A DNA stretch of 64,000 nucleotides. Origin: Patescibacteria group bacterium (lineage in GTDB: Bacteria > Patescibacteriota > Patescibacteriia > UBA9570). The notes under the pieces were generated by a model that ran no database searches, was not told where the DNA came from, and was given only the letters and a program-made list of their open reading frames with translations. A program made the position numbers and the translations under genes. The stretch spans positions 11,103 through 75,102 of the forward strand of contig JBAYIY010000007.1 in the NCBI GenBank assembly GCA_041665365.1, written 5' to 3'. Below, piece by piece: positions 3,148 through 47,159 of the stretch (the stretch's first letter is position 1; each line of letters begins with the position of its first letter).

Positions 3148-3266
3148 AAAATCACGCAGCAAGAATTTTCTATAATTCCATATCGAGCCGATCCAAATAG
3201 AGAATTAAATACGCATTAATAACCTAGCTGCGTAAGTAACTACTCGAAATGTACTTTTATGCAGGG
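3148..3266. repeat. copy 1 of a 110-120 bp direct repeat (partner at 4603-4713)
   Basis: aaaatcacgcagcaagaattttct[a/g]taattcc[a/g]tatcgagccgatccaaa[t/c]agagaattaaatacg... is shared with copy 2. Copy 1 has a 9-nt insertion (gcgtaagta). Confidence 0.85.
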
Positions 3267-3443: not shown

Positions 3444-4517
3444 CTAACCCACCGTGACGGTAGTGACGGCACTGGTAATCGTTTTTCCGTTATGACGGTA
3501 TTTTACTTTATACTTGGCAGTTTTCCTAGCTGTATATGTTTGCGTGTAATATCCTATCTCCGCAGTAGTTAAAGTATCAATTTTTGTATAACTAGTTTTT
3601 CCAGACTTTTTTTGCCAGACCGTAACAGTTTGATTCTGTTTCCCATTTTCAAGCCAACCGTATAAGCGGAATTGTTTACCCTTATTTAGTTCCGTCTTGC
3701 TGGCGGCCAAACTAATGGGCAATTGCTCCTGTACTGTTAACGTTTTGGTCACTGTAGTAGCCTTGGCACTTGGAGCAGTGGTTGCAGATTCAGAAAATAT
3801 CACATTGAGCTCAAACACAGCTCCTCCAGTCACTTCGGTAATATCTAAGGAAGCTTGATTGTCGCCGTCAAATACCGCCATGCCAGCCCAGGCTAGCTCT
3901 TGACCACTATATTCACTCAATAAATCCTTAATTCCATCTGGCATGAAAACGGTCATTGAACCAGTCTTACCTACTGGACCAACCAGTGAATAACCAAACG
4001 CCGGAGTGGCTTGATCTGGTGATGGTGGAATCAAGGCCCAATCTTGAACATTGGTGGATAGCCAAAAACCTTTCATTTCTTCCGGTGGACCATCTTCACC
4101 AGCGGCATTATCTGCTACACCAACTAATGCCACCACCGCGATATTCTCTGGACTGGAACTATCGGTAGGTTGCTTCATACCGGATGGCACAAATTGAACA
4201 GTATAGGTACCGGCATCAGCATTGTACACAGGCGGTGTATCCACGGACATAGTTGTGCCTGGTGCAACCACGCCAGCTGGTTCTTCGTCAACGGTAAACA
4301 CAGCGGTATATTCAACACCGTTAGCAATGTCTGCTTCATCAATCAGCCAGCCAGCCAACACCACCCGTTCCGGTGCGCCACCCATCATATCAGTAATATC
4401 CTGCTGTGGTGCTGGGCTGATGCTTTGTAGGTCGGCTGTAAACGCCCAACCCGACAATGGCAGCAACAAACTAACCCCAAGACCTAGAAAATATTGGAAT
4501 GATTTATTCATAAACAT
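3444..4517 (-). CDS. secreted hypothetical protein with C-terminal beta-sandwich-like module
   Basis: 357 aa. Signal peptide MFMNKSFQYFLGLGVSLLLPLSGWA. No catalytic family recognised. Confidence 0.6.
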   Translation of the reverse strand: MFMNKSFQYFLGLGVSLLLPLSGWAFTADLQSISPAPQQDITDMMGGAPERVVLAGWLIDEADIANGVEYTAVFTVDEEPAGVVAPGTTMSVDTPPVYNADAGTYTVQFVPSGMKQPTDSSSPENIAVVALVGVADNAAGEDGPPEEMKGFWLSTNVQDWALIPPSPDQATPAFGYSLVGPVGKTGSMTVFMPDGIKDLLSEYSGQELAWAGMAVFDGDNQASLDITEVTGGAVFELNVIFSESATTAPSAKATTVTKTLTVQEQLPISLAASKTELNKGKQFRLYGWLENGKQNQTVTVWQKKSGKTSYTKIDTLTTAEIGYYTQTYTARKTAKYKVKYRHNGKTITSAVTTVTVG

Positions 4518-4602: not shown

Positions 4603-4713
4603 AAAATCACGCAGCAAGAATTTTCTGTAATTCCGTATCGAGCCGATCCAAACAGAGAATTAAATACGTATTAATTACCTAGCTACTATTCGAGATGTAC
4701 TGCTATGCAGGGG
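4603..4713. repeat. copy 2 of the direct repeat, abutting the 3' end of tRNA-Trp
   Basis: Aligned by eye to 3148-3266. Its last bases (tgcaggg) overlap the tRNA acceptor 3' strand. Confidence 0.85.
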
Positions 4714-4778
4714 GTGCAGGAATCGAACCCGCCCTAATGGTTTTGGAGACCACTGTACTACCGATATACGAACCCCCT
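4708..4778 (-). tRNA. trnW: tRNA-Trp (anticodon CCA)
   Basis: The reverse complement folds as a cloverleaf. Acceptor AGGGGGT/ACCCCCT, anticodon stem GTGGT/ACCAT, loop CTCCAAA, T-arm GCGGG-TTCGATT-CCTGC. CCA is not encoded. Confidence 0.85.
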
Positions 4779-7952: not shown

Positions 7953-9764
7953 TTACTCAATCCCTAACTCTTTGCGGCGTTGGGCACTTTTATCTAAAGT
8001 CATTTTGCGCATGCGAATATTTTTTGGGGTTACTTCCACCAGTTCATCATCACCAATATATTCGAGTGAAGCATCTAAATCCATGATACGAGGGGCTTTG
8101 AAATGTTCATCAGTCCCATCACCTTTAGACCGCATGTTGGATAGCTGTTTGGCTTTGCAGATATTTACACTTAAATCAGCGGATCGGGCGTGTTGACCAA
8201 CCACTTGGCCTTTATAGACCTCAATGCCGGGACCAATAAACATAACACCACGATCTTGCACATTGCGTAAACCATACAAATTACTCTGGCCGGTTTCGTG
8301 TGCTACCAGTGAACCTTGATCGCGTTCTTTCCAGGCACCCGGGTCAGGCATGTATTTATAAAACATCGTATTCATAATACCCAAACCGCGCGTATCGGTT
8401 AAAAACTCATTGCGGTAGCCGAACAAACCGCGAGTGGGAATAATAAATTCTATGTAAACAATACCGTTATCAGACGTCATGTTTTGCATCTCACCATGGC
8501 GGCTGCCTAATTTTTGAATGACCGCACCCGAGTAGGCTTCAGGCACTTCGATAAAGATTTGATCATACGGCACCATTTTTTTACCGTCTATTTCTTTCAC
8601 AATTACTTGAGGGCGAGACACTTGTAATTCATAACCCTCGCGGCGTAAACGTTCGATCAAGATAGCTAAATGCAATTCACCACGACCACATACAACCCAA
8701 TTACTTTGCGGTCCATCGGTCACACGTAAGGCAGTATCAGTTTCCAATTCTTTAAAAAGCCTTTCCCGAATTTGGCGCGAGGTAGTAAAGTCACCTTCTT
8801 TACCAGCGAAAGGGGAATCATTCACCGAAAAAGTCATCTTCACAGTTGGCTCTTCGATTGTTAAGAGGGGAAGAGCAATCGGATTTTCCGGATCAGCAAT
8901 TGTTTCACCGATATTGGCTTCAGGTACACCGGCCAGAGCTACAATATCACCCGCGGTGGCTGTTTCAACTTCCGTGCGTCCTAAACCGGAGAAGGCCATA
9001 ATAGAAGTGAGCTTCAAAGTTTTTTGCACTCCTTTACGGTCGATATGAACCACATTTTGGCCGGCGGTTAATTTACCATTATAGATGCGACCAGTGGCGA
9101 TTCTACCTTTAAAACTATCGGCGGTTAAGGTAGTGACTAACAATTGTAATGGTTTAGCTGGATCACCAGTTGGTTCAGGAATATATTTTATAATCGCATC
9201 AAATATTGGGGTGATATCGGTCATGTCTTCCAACTTTGGTTCTAAACCCGCTTTGCCCATTTTAGCGGCCGCATACAAAATCGGGAAATCAGCCGTGGCA
9301 TCATCGGCGCCTAATTCTATAAACAAATCAAAGGTGCGGTTGAGTACTTCATTTATACGCGCATCTGGCTTATCAATTTTATTGATCACCACAATCACTT
9401 TTAGCTTCATTTCTAAGGCTTTACGCAACACAAACCGAGTTTGCGGCATGGGGCCTTCTTTAGCATCGATCAACAACAAACAGCCATTGGCCATTTGTAA
9501 GACGCGTTCGACTTCACCACCAAAATCTGAGTGGCCGGGGGTATCAATAATGTTGATTTTAGTATCATTATACTGAACCGAAGCGTTTTTGGAGAAAATC
9601 GTAATACCTCGTTCCTTTTCGAGATCATTACTATCCATGATTAACTCGGCGCCGGTTTGTTCCTTATTTAGGAAAGTTTTAGATTGGCGCAATAAAGCAT
9701 CGACCAAAGTAGTTTTACCATGGTCAACGTGAGCAATAATAGCAACGTTTCGTAGATTTGACAT
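7953..9764 (-). CDS. typA: translational GTPase TypA/BipA
   Basis: 603 aa. AHVDHGKTT, DTPGH, NKID G-motifs, and full-length similarity to BipA by recollection. Confidence 0.95.
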   Translation of the reverse strand: MSNLRNVAIIAHVDHGKTTLVDALLRQSKTFLNKEQTGAELIMDSNDLEKERGITIFSKNASVQYNDTKINIIDTPGHSDFGGEVERVLQMANGCLLLIDAKEGPMPQTRFVLRKALEMKLKVIVVINKIDKPDARINEVLNRTFDLFIELGADDATADFPILYAAAKMGKAGLEPKLEDMTDITPIFDAIIKYIPEPTGDPAKPLQLLVTTLTADSFKGRIATGRIYNGKLTAGQNVVHIDRKGVQKTLKLTSIMAFSGLGRTEVETATAGDIVALAGVPEANIGETIADPENPIALPLLTIEEPTVKMTFSVNDSPFAGKEGDFTTSRQIRERLFKELETDTALRVTDGPQSNWVVCGRGELHLAILIERLRREGYELQVSRPQVIVKEIDGKKMVPYDQIFIEVPEAYSGAVIQKLGSRHGEMQNMTSDNGIVYIEFIIPTRGLFGYRNEFLTDTRGLGIMNTMFYKYMPDPGAWKERDQGSLVAHETGQSNLYGLRNVQDRGVMFIGPGIEVYKGQVVGQHARSADLSVNICKAKQLSNMRSKGDGTDEHFKAPRIMDLDASLEYIGDDELVEVTPKNIRMRKMTLDKSAQRRKELGIE

Positions 9765-33197: not shown

Positions 33198-33208
33198 ATT
33201 TACCCCCA

Positions 33209-33303
33209 CGTATAGACATGCAATCATGTAGAGACGTGCCATCATGTAGAGACGTGCCATCATGTAGAGACGTGCCGGCGGCACGTCTCTACATGATGGC
33301 ACG
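33209..33303. repeat. family-2 palindromic repeat cluster (GTAGAGACGTGCC type)
   Basis: About 3.5 tandem 18-bp units catgtagagacgtgccat run into a 21-bp-arm palindrome, gccatcatgtagagacgtgcc-ggc-ggcacgtctctacatgatggc. Confidence 0.85.
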
Positions 33304-33322
33304 TATTTATCCACAAAGGTAT

Positions 33323-34485: not shown

Positions 34486-34501
34486 CCACTAAATTGTTGT
34501 C

Positions 34502-34591
34502 TTTACCCCCAACCCCCTTGCAGGGGGCTAAGAAAAGATTTTTCTAAATTTTCTTTCTTATCCCCCTGCAAGGGGGACAGAGGGGGTAAAA
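34502..34591. repeat. family-1 nested palindromic element (canonical copy)
   Basis: tttaccccc-aa-cccccttgcaggggg-ctaagaaaag...ctttcttat-ccccctgcaaggggg-acaga-gggggtaaa. Confidence 0.85.
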
Positions 34592-34603
34592 TCCGAGATG
34601 TTC

Positions 34604-37482: not shown

Positions 37483-38250
37483 ATGTTAATCTTCCAACGT
37501 TTTACTCCATATTGGACCACCGGTGTGGTAATGCTATGTCTGGCTCTCTTAGTAAAATACCCACAAGGGTGGTTAGCTTACTTGGTGATAGTGATATTAG
37601 TACCGATTAGTGCGATCATGATCATGCGCCAACCGCGTTGGCGGTTTGAGTATATTGGTTTATCAGTTCCGATGATATTGCTGGTAGTTGGTGGGTATAC
37701 CTTTTTACTAATTCAATCGACCCTGTGGTTACAAGTGGCGGCGGTGTTGTGTACCGGTATCTTTTTTTTCCTATTTGAGAAAAACCTCGCGGTCTGGTTA
37801 TTTCAACCGAACAAATATATTCCATTTTCCATGGAGCATATTAGTATTTATTGCAACGTTGTAGCATCATTTTATACTTATGTCAGTCTGTTCATGTTTT
37901 CAATTTTACGCTTAACTCAGCTGCGCTATATTTTTATTGCCACTTTATTAGTAACAACGGCGCTGGTGGGGCAAACATTTTGGATTCAGAAGATACCCTG
38001 GGTGAAAGCCAAGTGGTTTGTGTTAGTGATAACTGTTGTTATGACGCAATTAGTAGTAGTGCTCTATTATTGGCCAGTGAGTTTTTTTGTGACCGGTATT
38101 ATTATGACATTACTACTCTATGTCTTATTGCACTTAAGCCGGCATCATCTGACAGAAACCTTAACTAAACAATTGGTCTGGCGGTATTTATTGACCTGTG
38201 GTTTAGGATTAATTTTATTATTAGCCACAGCGCAGTGGTTATATGTATGA
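37483..38250 (+). CDS. polytopic membrane protein (about 7-8 TM), unknown function
   Basis: 255 aa, highly hydrophobic. Confidence 0.55.
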   Translation: MLIFQRFTPYWTTGVVMLCLALLVKYPQGWLAYLVIVILVPISAIMIMRQPRWRFEYIGLSVPMILLVVGGYTFLLIQSTLWLQVAAVLCTGIFFFLFEKNLAVWLFQPNKYIPFSMEHISIYCNVVASFYTYVSLFMFSILRLTQLRYIFIATLLVTTALVGQTFWIQKIPWVKAKWFVLVITVVMTQLVVVLYYWPVSFFVTGIIMTLLLYVLLHLSRHHLTETLTKQLVWRYLLTCGLGLILLLATAQWLYV

Positions 38251-38957
38251 AGAGACTACCGGTACCGACAGCGCCAAGTGAAAGAGCTAAATGGCAAACG
38301 GCTGAACCCGGTCGGTCGGCTTGGTTAATTTTAACACTGCTGTTAAGTTTGATAGCGGGTTTTACCGGTAGTTTAATGGCTGATGTTTATGAATTGGATT
38401 TAACACCAACCGCCCCGAATGTGATTGTAGTGCCGGATAATACTTCGTCGGCGTCGGCTAGTTTAGTAGCCGCTCTACAAAATGATCAGGCCGATGCCTT
38501 AGTGCTGATTCGTGATGAAAATACCATTTTAGGTAATGGGATAGTACAGAGTGGTGATGGTTGGATCGTGGCTGTGTCCGAAATATTTACCGATCAAACA
38601 ACCGTGACCATAGAAACTAATGCCGGTAAAAAATATACCAGTGATCAAATGCGCCTTGATGCAACGACCGGTTTAGCCTACATCCATGTAAATACGACCG
38701 GTTTAAGAATTGCCCAGTTTAGAGATAAGCCAGTTGAGTTAGGGGAAAGCTTAATTGTATATGGCCGTAATCCTGTCACCACGGTGGCATATGCATCAGT
38801 GTCTGGTCTTAATGATAAAGATATTATATTAGATCGCACGGTAGAAAAAAGTTTAGTAGGCGCACCGATTTATGATTTGACCAATGCCATGGTTGGTTTT
38901 GCTACGAATTCAACCAAGATAATCCCGATTGAGTTGGTGGCAGAGCCAGGGTTATAA
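38235..38957 (+). CDS. membrane-anchored trypsin-fold-like protein, probably catalytically degenerate
   Basis: N-terminal TM. Layout resembles S1C/HtrA protease cores, but SLVGAP replaces the GNSGGP serine motif. Confidence 0.4.
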   Translation: MVICMKRLPVPTAPSERAKWQTAEPGRSAWLILTLLLSLIAGFTGSLMADVYELDLTPTAPNVIVVPDNTSSASASLVAALQNDQADALVLIRDENTILGNGIVQSGDGWIVAVSEIFTDQTTVTIETNAGKKYTSDQMRLDATTGLAYIHVNTTGLRIAQFRDKPVELGESLIVYGRNPVTTVAYASVSGLNDKDIILDRTVEKSLVGAPIYDLTNAMVGFATNSTKIIPIELVAEPGL

Positions 38958-38960
38958 AAC

Positions 38961-39035
38961 TTTACCCCCAACCCCCTTGCAGGGGGCTAAGAAAAAATGT
39001 TTTTAAAAAACTTCTTTGGGGGACTAAGGGGGTAC
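38961..39035. repeat. family-1 palindromic element (degenerate right half)
   Basis: tttaccccc-aa-cccccttgcaggggg-ctaagaaaaa...cttctt-tgggggactaa-gggggtac. Confidence 0.8.
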
Positions 39036-39050
39036 ATTCCAGTAAGCCTT

Positions 39051-39079
39051 TTGCGAGTTTTATTTTTTTCTGTTATAAT
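39051..39079 (+). promoter_or_regulatory. sigma70-like promoter of the Wzz-like gene, leaderless layout
   Basis: TTGCGA, 17 nt spacer, TATAAT, then 8 nt to the ATG at 39088. Confidence 0.55.
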
Positions 39080-39087
39080 TTTAACCA

Positions 39088-39951
39088 ATGAATTATCTTC
39101 GCATTGTCTTTGCCCATTGGATTGCCATATTGTTCATCACCACTGCGGCCGCGGCGCTTACGGTCGGGTTATCTTTTATTCCTACCCAGATGTATTCATC
39201 GGAGGTGTCTTTATTGATTGTGCAGAAACAAGCGCAGTATGTTGACCCTTACACATCACAGAAAGCTGCCGAAAAGTTGGGGCAAAATTTAGTGAATGTG
39301 ATCGACTCATTTGATTTTTTAAACCGCGTTTTGGCCACCGGCACAGTCTCACCCGATTTATTTAGTGCTTCCACTGATGCCCGTAAAAAACAATGGGAAG
39401 CCATGACTGATGCGGAAATGTTTAGTAACACTGGTGTGTTGCATATCACCGCTTATGCCCCCACCGCCGGTGCCGCTGAAGATGTGGTGATGGCCATGAG
39501 TACAGTGCTCACTACTAATTCATCAGATTATCATGGTGGGGGAGATACCGTTGAGATTAAGCTCATCGATGGGCCGGTCACATCGGATAGTCCGGTAAAA
39601 CCAAACATTCCATTAAATGGTGCGATTGCGGCTGTGTTAGGCCTAATCGCCTCGGCGGCTGTATTTATTGTTTATGAAGAAACCAAACGGTTACAAGATG
39701 AACAAGCCAAGGTGAGGTATGTGCAAACCGTCACGCCTGGTAGAGACGTGCCGCCGGCACGTCTCTACGATGATCGGATTGAAAAATCTGATCAAATCAT
39801 AGAGCCCCAATATAAGGTATTAGATGAATACCCCAAACAGCCATATGTGTATGGTGCGGAATTGAAGGATGAAGAACCTCGCCAAGGGGCGGGTGAACCT
39901 CGCCAAGGGGCGGGTGAACCGGTGTCGATGCAGGATCATTTGAAAAAATAG
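39088..39951 (+). CDS. Wzz-like polysaccharide chain-length determinant with repeat-derived C-terminal tail
   Basis: TM1 at the N-terminus followed by Y.SEV.LLI, and TM2 (GAIAAVLGLIASAAVFIV) near residue 190. The tail contains a family-2 palindrome and a 21-bp tandem. Confidence 0.55.
   Translation: MNYLRIVFAHWIAILFITTAAAALTVGLSFIPTQMYSSEVSLLIVQKQAQYVDPYTSQKAAEKLGQNLVNVIDSFDFLNRVLATGTVSPDLFSASTDARKKQWEAMTDAEMFSNTGVLHITAYAPTAGAAEDVVMAMSTVLTTNSSDYHGGGDTVEIKLIDGPVTSDSPVKPNIPLNGAIAAVLGLIASAAVFIVYEETKRLQDEQAKVRYVQTVTPGRDVPPARLYDDRIEKSDQIIEPQYKVLDEYPKQPYVYGAELKDEEPRQGAGEPRQGAGEPVSMQDHLKK
39740..39768. repeat. family-2 palindrome inside the coding sequence
   Basis: gtagagacgtgcc-gcc-ggcacgtctctac, translated as GRDVPPARLY. 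Confidence 0.85.
39874..39920. repeat. 21-bp tandem repeat (2.2 copies)
   Basis: gaacctcgccaaggggcgggt x2 plus gaacc, translated as EPRQGAG EPRQGAG EP. Confidence 0.9.
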
Positions 39952-40011: not shown

Positions 40012-40040
40012 TTGACAAAAAGTAGAAATAATGCTAAATT
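40012..40040 (+). promoter_or_regulatory. sigma70-like promoter opening the high-GC cassette array
   Basis: TTGACA (40012), 17 nt spacer, TAAATT (40035). Confidence 0.5.
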
Positions 40041-40064: not shown

Positions 40065-40213
40065 GTACCCCCTAGCCCCCTTGCAGGGGGTAAAAGATAA
40101 CAATAAACTTATGCACCTTTTCACTATGAACAGTTAGTACGAACGGGGATACCATGAGTGTACCCCCAACCCTCATCTCTTATCCCCTTGAAAGGGGGAC
40201 AGAGGGGGTAAAT
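40065..40213. repeat. family-1 palindromic element, split/expanded copy
   Basis: gtaccccc-tag-cccccttgcaggggg ... about 70 nt insert ... gtaccccc-aac...ccccttgaaaggggg-acaga-gggggtaaa. Confidence 0.75.
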
Positions 40214-40760
40214 TCCGGAGTGGGTAAACACCAGTTAGTCTCACACGAATCAGATGAGAACACCATCAAAGTGAAGGTGTTGCCATGTGGTTCGTCTGTA
40301 TAGCCGGTGATCAGCAATGATCGCTGGCTGTCATGAATCACTCAACCCGAAAGGGTTAAGCACATTTACAATCTACTTTCCTACTTCGACTCGTTTCACT
40401 CGCTCAGTATAAATTTATTGAGCATGTAAGCTTGTCGAATGATCATCGGTAGCGATATACAGACCTCATCAATATACATACTTCTTTGAGTACACCACCC
40501 TAGCCCTCCTATTCTAGGAGGGAATAAGAATAAATTTTCTTACTCCCTTCCTACAATAGGAAGGGCCGGGGATGGTGTATTCCGGAGAGGGATACGTATC
40601 CGGAGAGGTCTCCATATCGCTACCGATGAAACCAACAATATCGGAGCTCGGTTCCCCAACGGGGAGACATTCGTCGCGGCAATTTCGCCGTGATGTATGT
40701 CCACCCGGACGTGAACCGGGACCGATCGACTTCACTCGACTACATGGAGCTACGAAAACA
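40204..40760 (+). promoter_or_regulatory. conserved structured 5' leader, copy A
   Basis: A 91-nt block (40204-40294) is identical to 42545-42635. Block 40443-40625 is near-identical to 42712-42917. Long-range stem cggtagcgatatacagacctc / gaggtctccatatcgctaccg. Confidence 0.6.
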
Positions 40761-42236
40761 ATGACGTTCAAGAACATCCTCGCGATCTTCACGTTCATCT
40801 TCGCCATTCTCGCCCCGGCGACCGTCGCCCAGGCCCAGGAGAAGTGGGAGGATCCAAAAGTGGGTCCGTTCACTCTCGGGTACTGGTCGAAGCTCGATGC
40901 CGGCGCGACCAGTGTCGACGCCGCGGCGGCCGGGATCATGAAGAACTTCAAGGAGTGTGAGAGCAAGTACGGCCAGGGTGGGTGCTACATCCAGTTCGAA
41001 TCATCTACTGACATCAACCGCTGGGACAACACCAAGAATGGCAAGGACGACGCATTGCACGGTGGGCTCGGAGAGGGACGCACCGCGGTCCTCAAGGACG
41101 CGGTGTTTTCTCGATCCGCAAGGATCAAGGAATACTCGGTCACCGACTACCCCCACCACGGTGCGAAAGATGGATGGCGGTACTCCTGGGCGACGATCAT
41201 GCCCAAGGAAGGTGCCTCCGCGATGCCGAAGGTGTCGGCCGACCCCAACAAGAGGTGGAGCTTCCTCACGGAAGTGCTCCTCCGCCAGACCGATAACCTC
41301 TGTCCCACGATGGTGCGGGCGGACGCGGTCACGCGAACCTACACCCTGCAGGGTCAAACCTGCGGGTGCAGCACGTTCGATGCAGTGCCCAGCACCCGCC
41401 AGTTGGAGGTCAGGAACGACCTCACCTGGTTGGGAAAGGTCGTCGCGGACCGCTCGAAGTGGTCCGACGCGAAGACTTTGACCTGGACGGAAGTCCGGGC
41501 CGCTCTCGAGGAGGGCACCGAGTCCCGCGTCATCGAAGTCGACGCGCTCGGCGATCCGTCCTCCACGCCCGACGGTCTGTCCGTTGAGTTCGTGGAGTCG
41601 GAGACCCTGCTCCGGGTGCAGTTCCCGGACAGGTGCTCGCCGATCCTCGACGCCGCGAAGGCAGAGGCCGACGCCAAGGCGCAAGCCAAGGCTCAGGCCG
41701 ACGCCGACGCCCGCGAGTCCGCAAGGCTCGCGGCGTACAACACCGACTTCATGGTCGGTGGGTCGGTCGCGGGTACGGGGACGTTCATCCCCAAGTACAG
41801 CCCCTTCAACCCGGGCAGGGGTTTCGACCTCGCCGGGCACGTCGAGGGCGGTGCGGTGATCGGCGGCGGGTACGGCGCGTGGGCTTTCGGGCTCGGCGTC
41901 GGCCCGTCGTGGGACCCGAACTGCCTGACCCCCGGCCAGGTTGACCTCGAGGCCTTCACCGGCCCGTGGCTCAACAGGCAGGGGAAGGTCGGGTTCTCCG
42001 CCTTCCTGAACGGATCTGCGGGCTTCACCATGTACAACGGTGAAGTCCTCACCCCGCGGTACCGCCTGGGTCTCAACCTGGGCGTGCCCGTGCAGGTGGA
42101 GCGTGAGCTCTACCTGGTTCCCCAGATCGGCCCCGTGGTCGACTGGGTGAGCGGGCAGGTGCAGGCGACCGGCGGCTTCGCGATCACCGAGCGAGTCGGG
42201 ATCGCGGGTGGTCTGCGGATCATCAAGACGTTCTGA
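40761..42236 (+). CDS. high-GC exported protein with C-terminal beta-barrel-like domain (foreign-type)
   Basis: ORF track gives 40572..42236. The true start is likely the ATG at 40761, after GGAG, because it begins the signal peptide MTFKNILAIFTFIFAILAPATVAQA. Strong GC3 bias. Gly/aromatic-rich last ~170 aa, ending in Phe. Confidence 0.7.
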   Translation: MTFKNILAIFTFIFAILAPATVAQAQEKWEDPKVGPFTLGYWSKLDAGATSVDAAAAGIMKNFKECESKYGQGGCYIQFESSTDINRWDNTKNGKDDALHGGLGEGRTAVLKDAVFSRSARIKEYSVTDYPHHGAKDGWRYSWATIMPKEGASAMPKVSADPNKRWSFLTEVLLRQTDNLCPTMVRADAVTRTYTLQGQTCGCSTFDAVPSTRQLEVRNDLTWLGKVVADRSKWSDAKTLTWTEVRAALEEGTESRVIEVDALGDPSSTPDGLSVEFVESETLLRVQFPDRCSPILDAAKAEADAKAQAKAQADADARESARLAAYNTDFMVGGSVAGTGTFIPKYSPFNPGRGFDLAGHVEGGAVIGGGYGAWAFGLGVGPSWDPNCLTPGQVDLEAFTGPWLNRQGKVGFSAFLNGSAGFTMYNGEVLTPRYRLGLNLGVPVQVERELYLVPQIGPVVDWVSGQVQATGGFAITERVGIAGGLRIIKTF

Positions 42237-42429: not shown

Positions 42430-42553
42430 TTTACCCCCTCTGTCCCCCTCTCGCCTCTGCGAAGCCGCTACGGCGGAGCACGGTGCAGGGGGATAAGAAA
42501 AGAAGTTTTAAAAATATCTTCTCATAGCCCCCTGCAAGGGGGTTGGGGGTAAA
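42430..42553. repeat. family-1 palindromic element (inverted orientation) with a GC-rich insert in one hairpin loop
   Basis: tttaccccc-tctgt-ccccct[38-nt insert]caggggg-ataagaaaag...-ccccctgcaaggggg-tt-gggggtaaa. Confidence 0.8.
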
Positions 42554-43053
42554 TTCCGGAGTGGGTAAACACCAGTTAGTCTCACACGAATCAGATGAGA
42601 ACACCATCAAAGTGAAGGTGTTGCCATGTGGTTCGAAGAGTCATAGTCGATCAGCAATGATCGCTTGTGACCACGAAACACAATTTGTTCTTTAAAATCT
42701 TCTGCTAAGAATCATCGGTAGCGATATACAGACCTCATCAAGCATACACACTTCTTTGAGTACACCACCCTAGCCCCCCGCCTTGCCGGCGTGGCAGGTC
42801 CTATTCTAGGAGGGAATAAGAATAAATTTTCTTACTCCCTTCCTACAATAGGAAGGGCCGGGGATGGTGTATTCCGGAGAGGGATACGTATCCGGAGAGG
42901 TCTCCATATCGCTACCGGTGAAAACAATACCGGCGTGCTCGGTTCCCAGAATGGGAAAGATGCGGTTGTGGGAATGTTCCCATGACATGTGTTCTACCCT
43001 GTTCAAAAGAACCGGGACCGATCGACTACACAATTTCGACTGGAGCTACGACA
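42545..43053 (+). promoter_or_regulatory. conserved structured 5' leader, copy B
   Basis: See copy A. Same block order, with the middle segment shortened and a 22-nt GC-rich insert at about 42786. Confidence 0.6.
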
Positions 43054-43839
43054 ATGACGCTCAAAAACATCGTGATCTCGCTCGCGCTCGTCGTCGGTTG
43101 CAAGATGGGCCCGGTGCAGGAATGTGACTCGGACTCGGACTGCTTCGAAACCAACACCAACTCCGATACCGACACCGACGCGGACACGGACACGGACGCC
43201 GACGCTGATACGGACACGGACTCCGACACCGATACCACCGAAACCGACGTGGACAACGACGGCGACGGGTACACCGTGGACGGCGGGGACTGCAACGACG
43301 CCAACGCCAGCGTCCACCCGGGCGCGACCGAGTACTGCAACGGCGTCGACGACGACTGCAACGGGTCGATCGACGACAATGACACCGACGGGGACGGGTA
43401 CGTCTCCGACGACTGCACGTCATATGACGGAGTCGCCGGCCTCCCCGGTGGTGATTGCGCGGATTCGATCGGGACGACGGCGTCCTGGTCGAACAGCGAT
43501 ATCCACCCGGGGCAGTTGGAAATGTACGACTGGATCGACACTAACTGCGACGGCACCGCCGACGATGGATGTAGTATGTTGTGCGACACCGACGGCGACG
43601 GATACGAGAATTTCGAACAGGGCAGCGGGCCCGAGTTCGAGTGCGTGGACGCGTCGTTCGTGGCGGATCAGTCCGCCTCGAGCAGCCCGTTCGATACGAC
43701 GATCTCGTGGACGTATGCCTCCAGCGGAGTGGTTTACTCCGGTGTGAACGCAACGTGCGAAATGACGGCGGCCCAGCAGGTCGATCCGTCAACCTGGAGG
43801 ACGATCACGTCCATCCAGGCCGAGATGGCCACCCGCTAA
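43054..43839 (+). CDS. high-GC lipoprotein with (D-T)n tract and MopE-type Cys-rich motifs (foreign-type)
   Basis: Start at the ATG at 43054 after GGAG. Lipobox LALVVGC. DTDTDADTDTDADADTDTDSDTDT tract. DGDGYTVDGGDCNDANASVHPGATEYCNGVDDDCNGSIDD. Confidence 0.7.
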   Translation: MTLKNIVISLALVVGCKMGPVQECDSDSDCFETNTNSDTDTDADTDTDADADTDTDSDTDTTETDVDNDGDGYTVDGGDCNDANASVHPGATEYCNGVDDDCNGSIDDNDTDGDGYVSDDCTSYDGVAGLPGGDCADSIGTTASWSNSDIHPGQLEMYDWIDTNCDGTADDGCSMLCDTDGDGYENFEQGSGPEFECVDASFVADQSASSSPFDTTISWTYASSGVVYSGVNATCEMTAAQQVDPSTWRTITSIQAEMATR

Positions 43840-44142: not shown

Positions 44143-44391
44143 ATGACTACGGCTAAATTAGTAAAAACAGTAAATTCATGTCCAAAGACAAGTTTGAATG
44201 ACAAACCGGTTGTTATGATACCCATGGAACTATGGGAAACGCTTCAGGTACAATTACTAACAAGACCAGTCCCGACTTATTATTTGCAAGGAAAAGAGGC
44301 AAAACAATTAGATCATCTTGTTCAACAAGGTATAAACGCAGCTCGATCGAGAAAAACTAGAGTAATAACTTCACTTGCAGAGTTAGATTAG
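44143..44391 (+). CDS. putative type II antitoxin (Phd/YefM- or RelB-like)
   Basis: 82 aa. KPVVMIPMELWETLQ resembles the antitoxin N-domain. A toxin-like remnant follows 4 nt downstream. Confidence 0.4.
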   Translation: MTTAKLVKTVNSCPKTSLNDKPVVMIPMELWETLQVQLLTRPVPTYYLQGKEAKQLDHLVQQGINAARSRKTRVITSLAELD

Positions 44392-44562: not shown

Positions 44563-45966
44563 TCAGCGATCCATTTGGCCGTGTGGCCTTGTCTCCACAA
44601 CAATCATGGCTAGCACTGTCATATATGTCCACATCACGGCGGTACCTTGGAGTAGATTATCACTGACACTAATTGTTAGCGCGGCAATAATTAAGGCCAT
44701 ACCAAACAGAGCATAGTGTTTTTGCCAGCTGTCTTCATGGTGGCTAACATAATTCCAGAATAGTGTTACTAACAAACCTAGCCAGAAACCAAGATACAGA
44801 GCCAAACCAACGAAGCCGGTTTCAATGGCTAAACGGAGATAATCATTATGGGCTTCAGGGTCATCAAACAAACCGATATCGCCCTGTTGTCTTAAAGTCA
44901 CAAAGTTGCCTAAACCGTAACCGAGAAGGGGAGAATTGAGGGTTTGCGGTGCCATAGTTTGAAACACCTGTAAGCGCCAATCAATCGAATCGGCTTCCTC
45001 ATCACGACTGGTTAGGCGATGTAAGAGGTTTATTTTATTTAGATCATAATTAAAAGTATTGATGGTAACAGTGTTGATTACTTGCCACAACAAAAATGCA
45101 CCGACTAAGACAGTAGCAATAGTGAGTAATTGTTTACGATAATATTTTAGGCCAATTAATATTTGAATGACGACAAAACCAATCCAGGCACCTCGAGTAT
45201 AGGTGAATAATAACATCACCAACCCCAAGCCGATTAGCCATGGATATATTAAAGACCGTTGTTCAGGTTTTTTAGTCAGTTGGGTGATTAATAATAAATT
45301 TATGATACATACCAAATAAAACCCAAACACATTCGGGTGACCAAAGGTGCCATAGACGCGGTTATCTAAACCACCAAATGATAGCCCGGTGGCGGTAATA
45401 AGCTGCACCAAGCCAGCGGCTAATGGTATCACCAGAGCCACGGCTAGTACCGGTGTTAGCCGCGTGATACTGTGTGGTTGTGTGGTAGCCACGTGGTAGG
45501 CAATTATAAAAATAATCACAATCGAACTGAGGCGGAGCCATTCACTCAATGAGATAAATGTATCCAAGCTGACACCCAAGGTGGCGGCTCCCCAGATTAA
45601 AACTCCAATCAGCCAGCCCAATTGGGTAGTGGCACTAAGTTCAACCCGTTCTCTAAGTAGAATTACTAAGAACCACACAATCACCAATATTGCCACCATG
45701 GAAGTTAAATTTATAGTGACTGATCGAATGGTTAAAAGGCCATAGCCAGAAAATATATCAATGATCGGGCGAAAGATGAGTAGGGCATATAAACCATACT
45801 CGGTTTTTAATAAAAAAATTGGGGCGATAATTACAATGGCCGCTAAGCCAATGGCGGATGTAGCAGAAATATCTCCAAATACTATCCAGCCTAATACACT
45901 TAACACTGTTAGGCTGTATATAATTAAAAGTATGGTGTTGAATTTTGAAAGTGGGGAGAAAGACAT
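44563..45966 (-). CDS. O-antigen ligase-like (Wzy_C/RfaL family) membrane protein
   Basis: 467 aa, about 11 TM. YTRGAWIGF and EAHNDYLRLAIETGFVG motifs. Confidence 0.75.
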   Translation of the reverse strand: MSFSPLSKFNTILLIIYSLTVLSVLGWIVFGDISATSAIGLAAIVIIAPIFLLKTEYGLYALLIFRPIIDIFSGYGLLTIRSVTINLTSMVAILVIVWFLVILLRERVELSATTQLGWLIGVLIWGAATLGVSLDTFISLSEWLRLSSIVIIFIIAYHVATTQPHSITRLTPVLAVALVIPLAAGLVQLITATGLSFGGLDNRVYGTFGHPNVFGFYLVCIINLLLITQLTKKPEQRSLIYPWLIGLGLVMLLFTYTRGAWIGFVVIQILIGLKYYRKQLLTIATVLVGAFLLWQVINTVTINTFNYDLNKINLLHRLTSRDEEADSIDWRLQVFQTMAPQTLNSPLLGYGLGNFVTLRQQGDIGLFDDPEAHNDYLRLAIETGFVGLALYLGFWLGLLVTLFWNYVSHHEDSWQKHYALFGMALIIAALTISVSDNLLQGTAVMWTYMTVLAMIVVETRPHGQMDR

Positions 45967-45987
45967 TGAGATTATTATAACACATCA

Positions 45988-46025
45988 ATCCAGTAGAGAC
46001 ATGCCATGGCATGTCTCTACTGGAT
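45988..46025. repeat. perfect 38-bp palindrome (family 2 variant)
   Basis: atccagtagagacatgcca|tggcatgtctctactggat. Confidence 0.9.
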
Positions 46026-46029
46026 TGAT

Positions 46030-46103: not shown

Positions 46104-47159
46104 TTACTTGACGGCGACCGTAGGGTTCGCCACCACGAGGATACTCCCCATGATGGTCTCCACGTCGCCGGCGTAATTCCCGCCGGCATTGTGGAGGTCG
46201 ATCCCCTCGGCCTTCACCACCTCTTCCCGGACGCCGTCAGCGACCGGGAAAGCCACCTCGCCCTCGCCGTACGAATCGTCGACGACGAAGAAGAAATGAT
46301 CCCGGGCGACTTCACAAAGTCGTTTGCCCGGGAGAGTGGTCAGACTCGAACACTTGAACCCCTCCGGCAGCACGAGGATGCTGCCCATCGTGAGTTCCGG
46401 AATCGTTCCGGTGTACTCACTCAGGGCGTAGCTATCCCCGGAGCCGGCGAGGGGCCCGGTGAAGCAATCGTAGCCCGACGAGGCGCCATCGCCGCAAGAG
46501 AGGTGGGTATGATCCACCTCAATGGGCAACGGCCGCCCGATCGGGCCAGTCTGAGTCAATTCTCCCACACGCACCGCCTGGGTCGCGGTCGTGTGGGAGC
46601 CACCGTGAGCCCCAACCCAGCGGGTGGAGTCATATCCCTTCTCACACGCGCTGAACGGCGCGGAGTCGGGGAGGACCCACCCGGACGAGCCGTCGAAGTA
46701 GCTGATTTCAACAACGGTACCGTCAGGCTGCAGGGCCGTGACGATCCCATTGTTGTACAGATCATCCGACGTGTCCCTCATGGCGAAGGAATCGGGGAGG
46801 TAAACCTCCCTCGTTCTCCTGCCATCGGGGGCTGTCACGGTCACCGGTGACGAGTCTTTCGACCCGTCGAGGACAAAAACCGGGTCGATGTCGACCCAGT
46901 CAAGTCCTCCGTCCCAGTCCGTCTCGACCGTCCGGGCGATCTTGCGATCAACCTGGAGGTCACGGATCTGGAACGGCACCGAGGCCCAGCACTCGGCCGG
47001 GGTCTCGGTGTCGGTGTCCGCGTCAGTGTCAGAGTCGGTGTCCGTCTCCGCTTCGGGGCAGGTCGCCCCGGGCAGAGACGGATCACAATTGAGCTCTCCA
47101 CACCCCGCCACCAAAATGGTGACCAGGACGAGGAGCAGCTCGATGATGTAGCGCAACAT
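46104..47159 (-). CDS. high-GC lipoprotein with (D-T/S)n tract (foreign-type)
   Basis: 351 aa. Lipobox LVAGC. ETDTDSDTDADTDTE tract. Strong GC3 bias. AAGGAG lies 6 nt before the ATG. Confidence 0.7.
   Translation of the reverse strand: MLRYIIELLLVLVTILVAGCGELNCDPSLPGATCPEAETDTDSDTDADTDTETPAECWASVPFQIRDLQVDRKIARTVETDWDGGLDWVDIDPVFVLDGSKDSSPVTVTAPDGRRTREVYLPDSFAMRDTSDDLYNNGIVTALQPDGTVVEISYFDGSSGWVLPDSAPFSACEKGYDSTRWVGAHGGSHTTATQAVRVGELTQTGPIGRPLPIEVDHTHLSCGDGASSGYDCFTGPLAGSGDSYALSEYTGTIPELTMGSILVLPEGFKCSSLTTLPGKRLCEVARDHFFFVVDDSYGEGEVAFPVADGVREEVVKAEGIDLHNAGGNYAGDVETIMGSILVVANPTVAVK

What the first reader, a model, noticed from the sequence alone, without database searches (positions are those of the whole stretch)
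43054..43839. High-GC lipoprotein with (Asp-Thr)n spacer and MopE-type Cys-rich metal-binding-like motifs
The protein has the lipobox LALVVGC. A Cys-containing stretch follows, then DTDTDADTDTDADADTDTDSDTDT, then two units of the form DGDGY...DC.D....V.PGA.E.CNG.DDDCNG..D. From memory this is the 'putative metal-binding motif' repeat, found mainly in Myxococcota-type and other high-GC diderm genomes. The acidic D-T spacer directly after the lipidated Cys is also characteristic of those lineages. Its presence as a single-gene GC island behind leader copy B supports foreign origin.
Basis: partly seen in the sequence, partly recalled or inferred. Interest (0 to 1): 0.6.

Follow-up and report, generated by a model that had tools for sequence, protein, structure and literature searches.

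The report
GC-rich MopE-repeat lipoprotein native to Patescibacteria
The gene does encode a membrane-anchored, cysteine-rich surface protein as described, but it is not a recent foreign import: it is one of three envelope genes that stay extremely GC-rich in every sampled relative of this low-GC ultra-small bacterium, and that persistence is the real puzzle.

Summary
Window 43054-43839 (+) encodes a 261-aa protein with a lipobox (VVGC, Cys16), a (Asp-Thr)n spacer (residues 38-61) and PF11617 'Cu-binding_MopE' motifs (62.3 bits, cutoff 27).

The 'single foreign GC island' reading is not supported. The window is a Patescibacteria MAG with GC3 0.36±0.05. It holds three GC3-rich envelope genes: A 0.87, B 0.85, C 0.79. 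The arrangement is 100% identical in three independent assemblies.

Homologues sit in the same synteny (Trypsin-Wzz-A-B-Wzy-C-GT4) in ten other low-GC contigs and are GC-rich there too (GC3 0.55-0.93). Four-fold sites between distant orthologues are saturated. No high-GC donor contig was found. Only B's repeat matches Myxococcota-type proteins. Its C-terminal region has about five relatives, all with the same architecture.

Two near-identical strains (Wzy DNA identical) carry B alleles only 40% identical, so B is exchanged as a cassette.

Best reading: B is a clade-native, hypervariable surface lipoprotein whose GC-richness is actively maintained, by biased gene conversion or by selection on the mRNA. 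B is not a MopE copper-protein orthologue.

The parts
43054..43839 (+). Gene B: 261-aa lipoprotein precursor (the finding)
   Evidence: ORF and translation. PF11617 scores 62.3 bits. GC3 is 0.854.
43042..43045 (+). Shine-Dalgarno-like GGAG, 8 nt before the ATG; also conserved before gene A
   Evidence: Sequence and leader alignment.
43054..43101 (+). Signal peptide with lipobox VVGC; Cys16 is the predicted lipidated residue
   Evidence: Regex and residue inspection. The PROSITE PS51257-type rule was applied from memory.
43102..43164 (+). Short Cys24/Cys30 segment after the anchor
43165..43236 (+). (Asp-Thr)n acidic spacer, residues 38-61
   Evidence: TRF finds period 6/12/24 repeats.
43249..43377 (+). 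Canonical PF11617 / MopE-type unit 1 (residues 66-108)
   Evidence: Best Pfam stretch is 79-108. It matches MopE 2vov residues 5-44, E 3.8e-4. It is the only high-confidence part of the AF2 model, pLDDT 80-97.
43378..43563 (+). Degenerate, expanded MopE-type unit 2 (residues 109-170)
   Evidence: Motif map. Query residues about 22-70 of the C-terminal query are what hundreds of multi-repeat proteins match.
43564..43836 (+). Clade-specific C-terminal region (third DGDGY, four Cys). It lacks the family's C..RTPAL..EC.ALF tail.
   Evidence: Alignment with orthologues. Only P0158, P0159 and P0007 match it among 1.84e9 representatives.
42545..43053 (+). Leader copy B: structured non-coding region directly upstream of B
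   Evidence: Mosaic identity with copy A. Fold z-score is -9.4. 144 shared pairs, 10 compensatory. No Rfam family.
40204..40760 (+). Leader copy A upstream of gene A
   Evidence: z -14.8. Partly homologous to the leader of the nearest relative L006.
40012..40040 (+). Sigma-70-like promoter (TTGACA-17-TAAATT, TG extension) ahead of leader A
   Evidence: Similar sequence lies upstream of the A orthologues in L006, L007 and L013.
40761..42236 (+). Gene A: 491-aa secreted protein (signal peptide ..VAQAQE), GC3 0.866, ends ..GLRIIKTF; orphan family
   Evidence: No Pfam or PDB match.
46104..47159 (-). Gene C: 351-aa lipoprotein (LVAGC) with D/T spacer, GC3 0.792
44563..45966 (-). Wzy_C (O-antigen ligase/polymerase-like) membrane protein of native composition, the syntenic anchor between B and C
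   Evidence: PF04932, E 8e-21. GC3 0.413. Present in all related loci.
38235..39951 (+). Trypsin_2-like peptidase and Wzz-like protein, the conserved left flank of the module
   Evidence: The same pair precedes the A/MopE genes in L012 and in Uhrbacteria L020.

Best explanation
Gene B encodes a surface-exposed lipoprotein that is native to a clade of Patescibacteria (CPR), not a recent import.

Shown:
- B has a Sec/lipobox signal, an acidic (Asp-Thr)n linker, one canonical and one degenerate PF11617 unit, and a C-terminal region found only in a handful of proteins with the same architecture.
- B sits in a conserved envelope locus: Trypsin_2 - Wzz - A - B - Wzy_C - C - GT4.
- Genes A, B and C are strongly GC3-enriched in every sampled relative, although their synonymous sites are saturated between distant lineages.
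- Gene C tracks the flanking Wzy phylogeny. B does not, and B is swapped as a cassette between strains whose Wzy DNA is identical.

Inferred mechanism of the protein:
- After export, Lgt/LspA attach Cys16 to the membrane.
- The polyanionic D-T linker holds the Cys-rich module away from the membrane.
- The 12 remaining cysteines, and probably Ca2+ bound by the DxDxDG-like loops, rigidify small repeat units with almost no secondary structure.
- The module acts as a variable binding or adhesion surface toward a host cell, a glycan or a phage-exposed epitope. This would explain the allele turnover.

Inferred mechanism of the composition: GC-richness is a maintained state of this recombining locus. 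The most likely cause is GC-biased gene conversion at a recombination hot spot. The alternative is selection for GC-rich, RNase-resistant, long-leadered mRNAs of abundant envelope proteins. The ultimate origin, possibly an ancient acquisition from a high-GC diderm, is undetermined.
For: Protein features:
- Pfam PF11617 at 62.3 bits.
- Lipobox, spacer and Cys map.
- The AF2 model is confident only for the repeat and nearly devoid of helices and strands.

Host identity: NCBI names genes A and C, and ribosomal proteins L10 and L7/L12 of the same contig, 'Patescibacteria group bacterium'.

Not an artefact: three independent assemblies are 100% identical.

Composition:
- GC3 is 0.87/0.85/0.79 against 0.356±0.051.
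- Codon choice is inverted: TTA 0.48→0.00, ATC 0.20→0.90, AAA 0.81→0.15.

Conservation: the same synteny and the same GC excess occur in L005, L006, L007, L011, L012, L013, L015, L016 and L018 (GC3 0.55-0.93 against 0.34-0.51 for the neighbouring genes). A milder version occurs in Uhrbacteria L020.

Divergence:
- Four-fold-site identity equals the saturation expectation for the distant A/B/C pairs.
- C-versus-Wzy identity matrices give r = 0.86. B-versus-Wzy gives r = 0.12.
- L005 and L013 are 96-100% identical over Wzy, C, the 3' part of A and the intergenic region. B plus about 130 nt upstream, and the 5' half of A, are unalignable or about 70% identical.

No donor found:
- Gene C has 15 homologues in 5.8e9 proteins, and every one with genomic context lies in a low-GC syntenic contig.
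- Only three full-length relatives of B's C-terminal region occur among 1.84e9 representatives, and these have the same lipoprotein architecture.

Evidence for active conversion and regional GC excess:
- GC excess spills 100-150 nt into non-coding flanks (0.54 against about 0.40).
- The two leader copies hold 91- and 129-nt blocks that are 100% and 98% identical, amid diverged segments. This is consistent with ongoing gene conversion at this locus.
- An Lgt gene lies next to the orthologous module in L007.
Against: - No experiment or expression data exist. Lipidation, metal binding and surface exposure are all inferred.
- A GC3 shift from 0.36 to 0.87 is far larger than the GC-biased conversion effects I recall being proposed for bacteria (my own knowledge).
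- Wzy, which lies between B and C, is only slightly GC-elevated (0.41-0.51). Any conversion effect would therefore have to be confined to tracts about as long as a gene.
- The window's B is the shortest family member (261 aa against 381-464 aa). It lacks the N-terminal Cys module and the C-terminal tail, so it could be a decaying allele.
- Diderm-like traits of its neighbours would fit a foreign origin at some depth: A ends in an aromatic residue like an outer-membrane beta-barrel signal, and C has a weak MltA-like fold.
- Only about 20 kb per relative was examined, so it is unknown whether other GC-rich genes exist elsewhere in these genomes.
Confidence: 0.6

Rival explanations
1. Recent horizontal transfer. 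B is a single gene newly acquired from a high-GC diderm such as a Myxococcota member. It is still GC-rich because it has not had time to ameliorate.
For: - GC3 lies about 10 sd above the background and codon usage is inverted.
- The best-scoring database hit, P0001 (E 4e-70), lies in a 59% GC contig with FHA, Ser/Thr-kinase and PEGA genes.
- Named hits are mostly Myxococcota and other diderms.
Against: - P0001 and similar hits match only the PF11617 repeat, many times over.
- Orthologues of B, A and C occupy the same slots in ten related low-GC contigs.
- Four-fold sites between them are saturated.
- C co-diverges with Wzy.
- No integrase, tRNA or border repeats flank the gene.
- AGG makes up 27% of Arg codons and CTC outnumbers CTG. 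From my own knowledge this is not a typical high-GC bacterial pattern.
Confidence: 0.05
2. Recurrent import. Each lineage repeatedly replaces A/B/C with alleles from an unsampled high-GC pool, such as the organisms these epibionts live on or a high-GC mobile element. GC-richness then reflects the donor rather than a force acting within the CPR genome.
For: - B alleles are swapped between near-identical strains, and the B phylogeny is incongruent with Wzy.
- TA modules accumulate next to the genes, as at integration hot spots.
- A and C have diderm-like features.
Against: - No donor homologue of C or of B's C-terminal region was found in 5.8e9 or 1.84e9 proteins.
- Every homologue with genomic context lies in a low-GC syntenic contig.
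- C tracks Wzy (r = 0.86) yet keeps GC3 of about 0.8.
- GC3 levels of A, B and C co-vary within a genome: about 0.55-0.66 in L007 and about 0.8-0.93 in L005, L012 and L013. This suggests a genome-specific equilibrium.
- Recombination breakpoints lie inside homologous gene ends. This fits exchange within the clade.
Confidence: 0.15
3. Assembly chimera or contamination. High-GC reads from another organism were joined to a low-GC contig.
For: Composition switches sharply at the gene borders.
Against: - Identical junctions appear in three independent assemblies from ENA, JGI and Logan.
- The same pattern appears in ten further contigs from other samples.
- The leader upstream of B is shared with gene A and joins seamlessly to low-GC flanks.
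Confidence: 0.01
4. B is a functional MopE/CorA-type copper-acquisition protein.
For: Pfam calls the motif 'Cu-binding_MopE', and MopE 2vov matches at E 3.8e-4.
Against: - The match covers only residues 5-44 of the MopE* chain.
- The Cu(I) site of MopE* is His132, His203 and kynurenine-130. The N-terminal 46 residues, which hold the motif, are disordered or cleaved in the crystal. Only weak Cu(II) binding is tentatively assigned to the first 24 residues (PMC3423442).
- B has just two His, both in HPG motifs, and no MopE* core.
Confidence: 0.04

Closest known systems
PF11617 'Cu-binding_MopE / putative metal-binding motif' repeat proteins of Myxococcota and other diderms ('MopE-related protein', 'putative metal-binding motif-containing protein')
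   Same: - The same roughly 40-residue unit: DGDGY..DC.D....HPGA.E.C.G.D.DC.G.
- These proteins are often lipoproteins with D/T/S-rich acidic spacers after the Cys (for example P0092, P0115, P0118).
   Different: - Those proteins usually carry many tandem units, up to 35 matched stretches, in genomes that are uniformly high in GC.
- B has one canonical and one degenerate unit, plus a C-terminal region restricted to a tiny Patescibacteria-type family.
- B sits in a 41% GC genome.
MopE of Methylococcus capsulatus (PDB 2vov/2vow/2vox)
   Same: They share the N-terminal motif: B residues 66-105 against MopE* residues 5-44, E 3.8e-4.
   Different: B has no MopE* core and no His/His/kynurenine Cu(I) site (PMC3423442). 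It is not an orthologue.
MopE-repeat lipoproteins of Candidatus Uhrbacteria GW2011_GWA2_52_8d (P0009 and two neighbours, locus L020)
   Same: - A CPR host.
- Lipobox plus PF11617 repeats.
- Located downstream of Trypsin_2-Wzz.
- GC3 above that of the neighbours (0.48-0.65 against 0.34-0.42).
   Different: - The GC excess is much milder.
- More repeats and different C-terminal parts.
- No detectable homologue of A or C by BLASTP.
Hypervariable surface-polysaccharide or antigen loci (O-antigen/capsule clusters) with atypical composition and allele replacement by flanking homology
   Same: - It sits in a Wzz/Wzy/glycosyltransferase cluster.
- Cassette-like replacement occurs between otherwise identical strains.
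- Composition is atypical.
   Different: - From my own knowledge, such loci are classically lower in GC than the genome and are read as imports.
- Here the protein genes, not the sugar genes, are anomalous.
- The anomaly is towards high GC and is conserved across a clade.
GC-biased gene conversion as proposed for recombining bacterial genes (my own knowledge of the hypothesis; the topic appears in PMC11879095, listed but not read)
   Same: - GC3 is elevated in the genes that show recombination.
- The excess spills into adjacent non-coding DNA.
   Different: - The size of the effect (+0.5 in GC3) and its restriction to three genes are far beyond the effects I recall being reported.
- The substitution bias itself was not measured here.

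Membership tests
PF11617 Cu-binding_MopE motif-containing proteins | hmmscan score at or above the Pfam gathering threshold (27 bits) | tested here: met
   62.3 bits, E 4.7e-17, 2 stretches.
PF11617 Cu-binding_MopE motif-containing proteins | Conserved pattern DGDG[YF] .. DC.D .. [HY]PGA.E .. C.G.D.[DN]C[DN]G with three Cys per unit | tested here: met
   Unit 1 (residues 66-108) matches completely. Unit 2 (residues 109-170) keeps DGDGY, DCAD, HPGQ.E and D.NCDG but carries insertions.
MopE/CorA copper-binding surface proteins (Methylococcus-type) | MopE* core domain with the His-His-kynurenine(Trp) Cu(I) site | tested here: not met
   The PDB match is limited to residues 5-44 of 2vov. B has only His88 and His151, both in HPG motifs. 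Site definition comes from PMC3423442.
Bacterial lipoproteins (Lgt/LspA substrates) | N-terminal positive residue, uncharged hydrophobic core, lipobox [LVI][ASTVI][GAS]C with Cys within the first 35 residues | tested here: met
   K4, IVISLALVV, VVGC with Cys16. No dedicated predictor (SignalP/LipoP) was available.
Bacterial lipoproteins (Lgt/LspA substrates) | Lgt and LspA encoded in the genome; actual lipidation | tested here: inconclusive
   Neither was identified among the roughly 20 of about 50 window ORFs scanned with Pfam, so the test within the window is incomplete. An Lgt gene (PF01790) lies 6 kb from the orthologous module in L007. Lipidation itself is not testable here.
Recently acquired genomic island | Atypical base composition and codon usage | tested here: met
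   GC3 0.854 against 0.356±0.051. Codon usage is inverted.
Recently acquired genomic island | Absent from, or patchy among, related genomes at that locus | tested here: not met
   Orthologues lie in the same slot in L005, L006, L007, L012 and L013. C orthologues occur in ten contigs.
Recently acquired genomic island | Closest full-length homologues in a donor lineage of matching composition | tested here: not met
   High-GC hits share only the repeat. Full-length relatives are the syntenic CPR genes and the look-alikes P0158 and P0159.
Recently acquired genomic island | Mobility signatures at the borders (integrase, tRNA, direct repeats) | tested here: not met
   None between 38 and 48.5 kb. 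The only tRNA is at 4708-4778.
Hypervariable, recombining surface-protein locus | Near-identical flanks with deeply diverged alleles and discrete breakpoints | tested here: met
   In L005 against L013, Wzy is 100% identical in DNA. B is 40% identical in amino acids, with four-fold sites at saturation. Breakpoints lie about 130 nt upstream of B and 20 nt before its stop. This was shown in relatives, not in the window's own population.
GC-biased gene conversion tract | Excess of AT→GC over GC→AT fixations relative to polymorphism, correlated with recombination | not tested
   This needs population read data. Only indirect signs were seen: GC excess in 100-150 nt of non-coding flank and conversion-like identical blocks in the duplicated leader.
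Known RNA families (for the leader upstream of B) | Rfam covariance-model match | tested here: not met
   No hit at gathering threshold. Only chance-level hits at E up to 10.

The most novel reading that the evidence does not exclude
A clade of Patescibacteria keeps a small set of envelope-protein genes (A, B, C around Wzy) at GC3 0.8-0.9 inside genomes of GC3 about 0.36, over divergence times that saturate synonymous sites.

If so, this is a stable, gene-sized compositional domain. It would be created either by unusually strong GC-biased conversion at a cassette-exchanging locus or by selection for GC-rich, long-leadered, stable mRNAs.

It would be a natural counter-example to the rule that an atypical-GC gene is a recent import that then ameliorates. 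It would also be a tractable system for measuring biased gene conversion against selection on GC in bacteria.

A more speculative variant is that the codon usage and the diderm-type features are tuned to a high-GC host.
Probability: 0.45. Interest if true: 0.8.

Novelty: new variant of a known kind. Interest (0 to 1): 0.62.

Why it matters
Taken alone, the protein is one more PF11617-repeat lipoprotein. Its context is what matters.

Atypical GC and codon usage are routinely used to call recent horizontal transfer. Here the same three genes are extreme GC outliers in every sampled relative, despite saturated synonymous divergence and conserved synteny.

The signal must therefore be maintained, not inherited from a donor. 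That bears on three issues:
- How HGT is called in CPR/Patescibacteria genomes.
- Whether GC-biased gene conversion or selection on GC operates strongly in bacteria.
- Which surface proteins these epibiont-like cells diversify, which makes them candidate host-contact or phage-exposed molecules.

There is also a practical point. Gene callers put several of these GC-rich genes on the wrong strand (L006, L007, L012), so the family is under-represented in protein databases.

Tried and rejected
- Rfam scans of the whole window and of 39.9-43.1 kb found no family for the leader.
- NCBIfam gave nothing meaningful for A, B or C.
- The word-indexed homologue search for gene A returned only itself, because candidates were capped at 8000.
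- The genome-contig scan with the C-family alignment returned only the contig already held (L006 = L008) and one marginal hit.
It gave one weak locus in a 69% GC contig (L010), which I did not pursue.
- blastn of the leader against related loci found only the promoter block and one 25-nt block, so I built no covariance model.
- The B model is poor outside the repeat, and its PDB fold search gave only non-significant AOAH matches.
- A profile of the A family hit nothing in PDB or Pfam.
- Literature searches found no description of GC-rich envelope genes in CPR.
- Considered and rejected:
  - Upstream in-frame starts for B (ATG at 42982) and A (ATG at 40572). The two leader copies differ in frame there, while the GGAG-8 nt-ATG arrangement is conserved.
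  - A diversity-generating retroelement. No template/variable repeat pair was seen, no reverse transcriptase was found among the roughly 20 of about 50 window ORFs that I scanned with Pfam, and the coding strand is A-rich rather than A-depleted.
Full report
**1. The observation**

The ORF at 43054-43839 (+) starts with ATG, 8 nt after a GGAG, and ends in TAA. Its product has 261 residues.
- It begins MTLKNIVISLALVVGC, with one Lys, an uncharged hydrophobic core and the lipobox VVGC (Cys16).
- Cys24 and Cys30 follow.
- The run DTDTDADTDTDADADTDTDSDTDT occupies residues 38-61. TRF sees it as period 6/12/24 DNA repeats.
- DGDGY occurs at residues 69, 112 and 180.
- Residues 66-108 form a canonical unit: DGDGY..DCND....VHPGATEYCNGVDDDCNG.
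- Residues 109-170 form a stretched, degenerate second unit.

hmmscan gives PF11617 (Cu-binding_MopE) at E 4.7e-17 and 62.3 bits against a cutoff of 27, in two stretches. The mature protein has 59 Asp+Glu against 3 Lys+Arg, and 12 Cys after the anchor Cys.

**2. The composition**

The window averages about 41% GC. Forty-seven other ORFs have GC3 of 0.356 ± 0.051 (maximum 0.468). Gene B has GC3 of 0.854.

It is not alone:
- Gene A (40761-42236, +, 491 aa, cleavable signal peptide) has GC3 of 0.866.
- Gene C (46104-47159, -, 351 aa, lipobox LVAGC followed by ETDTDSDTDADTDTE) has GC3 of 0.792.

Codon choice in the three genes is the inverse of the background:

| Codon | Background | A+B+C |
|---|---|---|
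| TTA | 0.48 | 0.00 |
| CTC | 0.06 | 0.59 |
| ATC | 0.20 | 0.90 |
| AAA | 0.81 | 0.15 |
| TTC | 0.20 | 0.95 |

Amino-acid composition is also shifted, with more GARP residues (in A and C) and fewer FYMINK residues (all three). GC rises within about 150 nt before the start codons and falls within about 100-150 nt after the stops. The immediate non-coding flanks are at about 0.54, against about 0.40 further out.

**3. It is not an artefact, and the host is a CPR bacterium**

The same DNA was assembled independently three times: in ENA ERZ27249449 (85.6-kb contig), JGI 3300037810 and Logan SRR6484324. The two shorter contigs are 100% identical to the window. The long one differs only by one copy of an 18-nt tandem unit at 33259, outside the region.

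NCBI names genes A and C, and ribosomal proteins L10 and L7/L12 of the same contig, 'MAG... [Patescibacteria group bacterium]', locus tags WCV88_04145 and WCV88_04165. The other genes scanned are chromosomal housekeeping and envelope genes: BipA, RsmB, L10, L7/L12, Wzz, Wzy_C, GT4, GT2 and GHL15.

**4. What the database hits mean**

The word-indexed search gave 167 hits.
- The top hit, P0001 (E 4e-70), is a protein made of at least seven PF11617 units. It lies in a 59% GC contig with FHA, Ser/Thr-kinase and PEGA genes.
- Named hits are Myxococcota, Desulfobacterales, Planctomycetota and Pseudomonadota, plus one Candidatus Uhrbacteria.
- All of these share only the repeat.

I then ran an exhaustive phmmer search with residues 120-261 against 1.84 billion representatives. 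It found 637 proteins. Almost all matched only query positions about 22-70, which is the repeat, up to 35 times per protein. Only P0158, P0159 and P0007 match the whole C-terminal region. These three are lipoproteins with the same modular layout and the tail C.RTPAL..EC.AL[F/V].

So B consists of a widespread repeat plus a region specific to a very small family. The window's B is the shortest member. It lacks the family's N-terminal Cys module and the C-terminal tail.

**5. The neighbours and the relatives**

Gene C has only 15 homologues among 5.8 billion proteins. I retrieved the contigs of nine of them plus that of the B homologue P0013. This gave loci L005, L006, L007, L011, L012, L013/14, L015, L016/17 and L018/19.
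- In every case the C homologue lies between a GT4 glycosyltransferase and a Wzy_C gene in a low-GC contig.
- In every case it is a GC island: GC3 0.55-0.91, against 0.34-0.51 for the neighbouring genes.
- Beyond Wzy_C lie B-like and A-like genes in L005, L006, L007, L012 and L013, with GC3 of 0.62-0.93. L018 carries an A-like gene (GC3 0.92) at the contig end.
- Several of these were called on the wrong strand by the source annotation.
- In L012 and in the window, the left flank is Trypsin_2 followed by Wzz.
- In Candidatus Uhrbacteria GWA2_52_8d (L020), Trypsin_2-Wzz is likewise followed by secreted proteins and three PF11617 lipoproteins. These have GC3 of 0.48-0.65, against 0.34-0.42 for their neighbours.

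The conserved unit is therefore Trypsin_2 - Wzz - A - B - Wzy_C - C - GT4 - GHL15, and so on. Only A, B and C are compositionally anomalous.

**6. Why this is not unameliorated recent transfer**

For all distant ortholog pairs of A, B and C, identity at four-fold degenerate sites of conserved residues equals the value expected at saturation given each gene's base frequencies. Example pairs for the window's B are 0.33-0.45 observed against 0.34-0.39 expected. The native flanking genes Wzy and GT4 are also near saturation (0.27-0.41 against 0.25).

Pairwise identities of C correlate with those of Wzy (r = 0.86). For example, the window's closest relative is L006 for both genes (C 0.62, Wzy 0.68). 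This points to vertical descent, yet C keeps GC3 of about 0.79 in both lineages.

A neutral sequence in a genome whose equilibrium GC3 is about 0.36 would have lost most of its excess after that much divergence. This step is inference. L007 alone shows lower values for all three genes (0.55-0.66), which suggests a lineage-specific strength of whatever force is acting.

No homologue of C, or of B's specific region, was found in a high-GC context.

**7. B is a cassette**

L005 and L013 come from two runs of one series. Their Wzy genes are 100% identical in DNA, C is 91% identical in amino acids, and A is 64% identical. B is only 40% identical, with four-fold sites at saturation.

blastn shows about 96% identity across the 3' part of A plus most of the A-B spacer, and again from the last 20 nt of B through the TA genes, Wzy and C. 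B plus about 130 nt upstream, and the 5' half of A, are unalignable or about 70% identical. B identities do not track Wzy (r = 0.12).

B, and part of A, are therefore exchanged between lineages by recombination at the gene ends, and both alleles are GC-rich. This is the behaviour of a variable surface antigen or adhesin.

**8. The leader**

B is preceded by a copy (42545-43053) of the roughly 560-nt region that precedes A (40204-40760).
- The two copies are mosaics: blocks that are 100% and 98% identical (91 and 129 nt) alternate with diverged hairpins and indels.
- Both fold far better than shuffles, with z-scores of -14.8 and -9.4.
- A joint fold has 144 pairs, 10 of them with compensatory changes and none broken in the variable hairpins.
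- No Rfam family matches.
- A sigma-70-like promoter at 40012-40040 is conserved upstream of A in L006, L007 and L013.
- The 450-630-nt regions between that promoter and A in those loci, and the spacer before B in L013, are also strongly structured, with z-scores of -6.8 to -10.1.
- The nearest relative, L006, shares a hairpin with compensatory changes and the motif GTCATGAATCAC...GCACATTTACAATCTACTTTCCTAC; within it, a 25-nt stretch is invariant (blastn). It also shares the GGTAGCGAT/ATCGCTACC stem.

A long structured 5' leader is thus a conserved trait of the module. Its duplication in front of B is specific to this genome.

**9. What B probably does**

Shown: export and lipobox signals, an acidic linker, PF11617 units, a cysteine-rich composition, and an AF2 model that is confident only for unit 1 (pLDDT 80-97) and almost free of helices and strands.

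The motif matches residues 5-44 of MopE* (2vov, E 3.8e-4) and, non-significantly, the N-terminal part of the AOAH large subunit. In MopE*, the high-affinity Cu(I) site is His132, His203 and kynurenine-130, far from this motif. The motif-bearing N-terminus is disordered or cleaved in crystals. Only weak Cu(II) binding is tentatively assigned to its first 24 residues, and Ca2+ stabilises the protein (PMC3423442). B has no MopE* core and only two His. So 'copper-binding' is a family label, not an inference I accept.

My reading is an inference. B is a membrane-tethered module, rigidified by disulfides and probably by Ca2+, held away from the membrane by a polyanionic linker. It serves as a variable contact surface within an envelope locus.

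Its partners in the locus are:
- A, an orphan secreted protein ending in an aromatic residue.

**10. What keeps it GC-rich**

Two candidates fit the data and neither is proven.

(a) GC-biased gene conversion at a recombination hot spot. In favour:
- demonstrated allele exchange;
- conversion-like identical blocks in the duplicated leader;
- GC excess spilling into non-coding flanks;
- a slight GC3 rise in Wzy, which lies between the islands.

Against: the effect size is far beyond the effects I recall being reported.

(b) Selection on the transcript. GC-rich, highly structured, long-leadered mRNAs could be unusually stable or specially regulated, which would suit abundant envelope proteins. 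This is an analogy from my own knowledge of stabilising 5' UTRs such as that of ompA.

Recurrent import from an unsampled high-GC donor remains possible but lacks any donor. It also conflicts with the co-divergence of C with Wzy.

**11. Verdict**

The family assignment of the motif is confirmed. The 'recent foreign single-gene island' interpretation is not supported.

The protein is a new member or variant of a known repeat class. The surprising result is the clade-wide, long-lived GC3 anomaly of three envelope genes in Patescibacteria, together with cassette exchange of B.

Noticed in passing
window 40204-40760 and 42545-43053: A duplicated non-coding leader of about 560 nt lies in front of genes A and B. 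It is strongly structured (z -14.8 and -9.4) and alternates 100%/98%-identical blocks with hairpins that carry compensatory changes. No Rfam family matches. It is a candidate new cis-regulatory or stabilising RNA.
   Followed up: partly
window 40330-40398 and L006 12870-12910: The motif GTCATGAATCAC...GCACATTTACAATCTACTTTCCTAC is shared between leader A and the leader of the nearest relative; a 25-nt stretch of it is invariant (blastn). Four-fold sites of the flanking genes are near saturation over the same distance. The block is largely deleted in leader copy B.
   Followed up: partly
window 40443-40629 (and 42712-42921): A long hairpin with 25-nt arms (TCATCGGTAGCGATATACAGACCTC / GAGGTCTCCATATCGCTACCGATGA) encloses a second near-perfect hairpin. 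In L006 the same GGTAGCGAT/ATCGCTACC stem closes only a short loop, so the inner roughly 140 nt look like an insertion (MITE-like?).
   Followed up: partly
[not shown]
   Followed up: partly
window 40761-42236 (+), gene A: Gene A is an orphan secreted protein. Its Gly-rich C-terminal roughly 160 residues end in ..GLRIIKTF; orthologues end ..VGWDF or contain ..LRWTF near the end. This resembles the C-terminal signal of outer-membrane beta-barrels, which is odd for a lineage thought to lack an outer membrane. There is no Pfam or PDB match.
   Followed up: partly
L006 13077-16138, L007 13403-14611, L012 6402-9803: The source annotations called the GC-rich A-like and B-like genes on the wrong strand, giving ORFs with GC3 of about 0.5-0.64 and nonsense products. 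Several family members are therefore missing from protein databases.
   Followed up: yes
L006 / L008 (CAYLOJ010000001.1, GCA_964385285.1): The record title says 'uncultured Gammaproteobacteria bacterium'. Yet the contig shares the whole locus in synteny with the Patescibacteria MAG, with 68-70% amino-acid identity in Wzy and GT4. It is probably mislabelled.
   Followed up: no
window 34501-34595, 38960-39007, 40069-40090, 40178-40217, 42430-42553; also 33207-33309, 39740-39768, 45984-46029: Two families of dispersed intergenic palindromes occur: CCCCC(A/T)..CCCCCTTGCAGGGGG-type and GTAGAGACGTGCC..GGCACGTCTCTAC-type. They look like REP-like or terminator-like elements. The 18-nt unit of the second type varies in copy number between assemblies (at 33259).
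   Followed up: partly
window 44143-44391 (+); L005 3230-3700; L011 11369-12727: Small low-GC genes, some of them toxin-antitoxin genes (HicAB, CopG, DUF433/DUF5615 in L011), differ from genome to genome in the gap between B or C and Wzy. This is a variable insertion spot inside the conserved module.
   Followed up: no
window 3148-3229 and 4603-4684; tRNA at 4708-4778 (-): An 82-nt direct repeat (94% identical) brackets a 1.4-kb segment with one unannotated 357-aa ORF (3444-4517, -), right next to a tRNA gene. It may be a small integrated element.
   Followed up: no
L020 1-13245 (Candidatus Uhrbacteria GW2011_GWA2_52_8d): Trypsin_2 - Wzz is followed by two paralogous secreted proteins and three PF11617 lipoproteins with moderately raised GC3 (0.48-0.65 against 0.34-0.42). 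This suggests that the locus type and a milder GC excess extend beyond the clade studied.
   Followed up: partly
P0122 (Logan contig, 440 aa): One C-family member carries a PF11617 unit inserted between its acidic spacer and the catalytic-looking domain. The repeat is therefore shuffled among the module's proteins.
   Followed up: no
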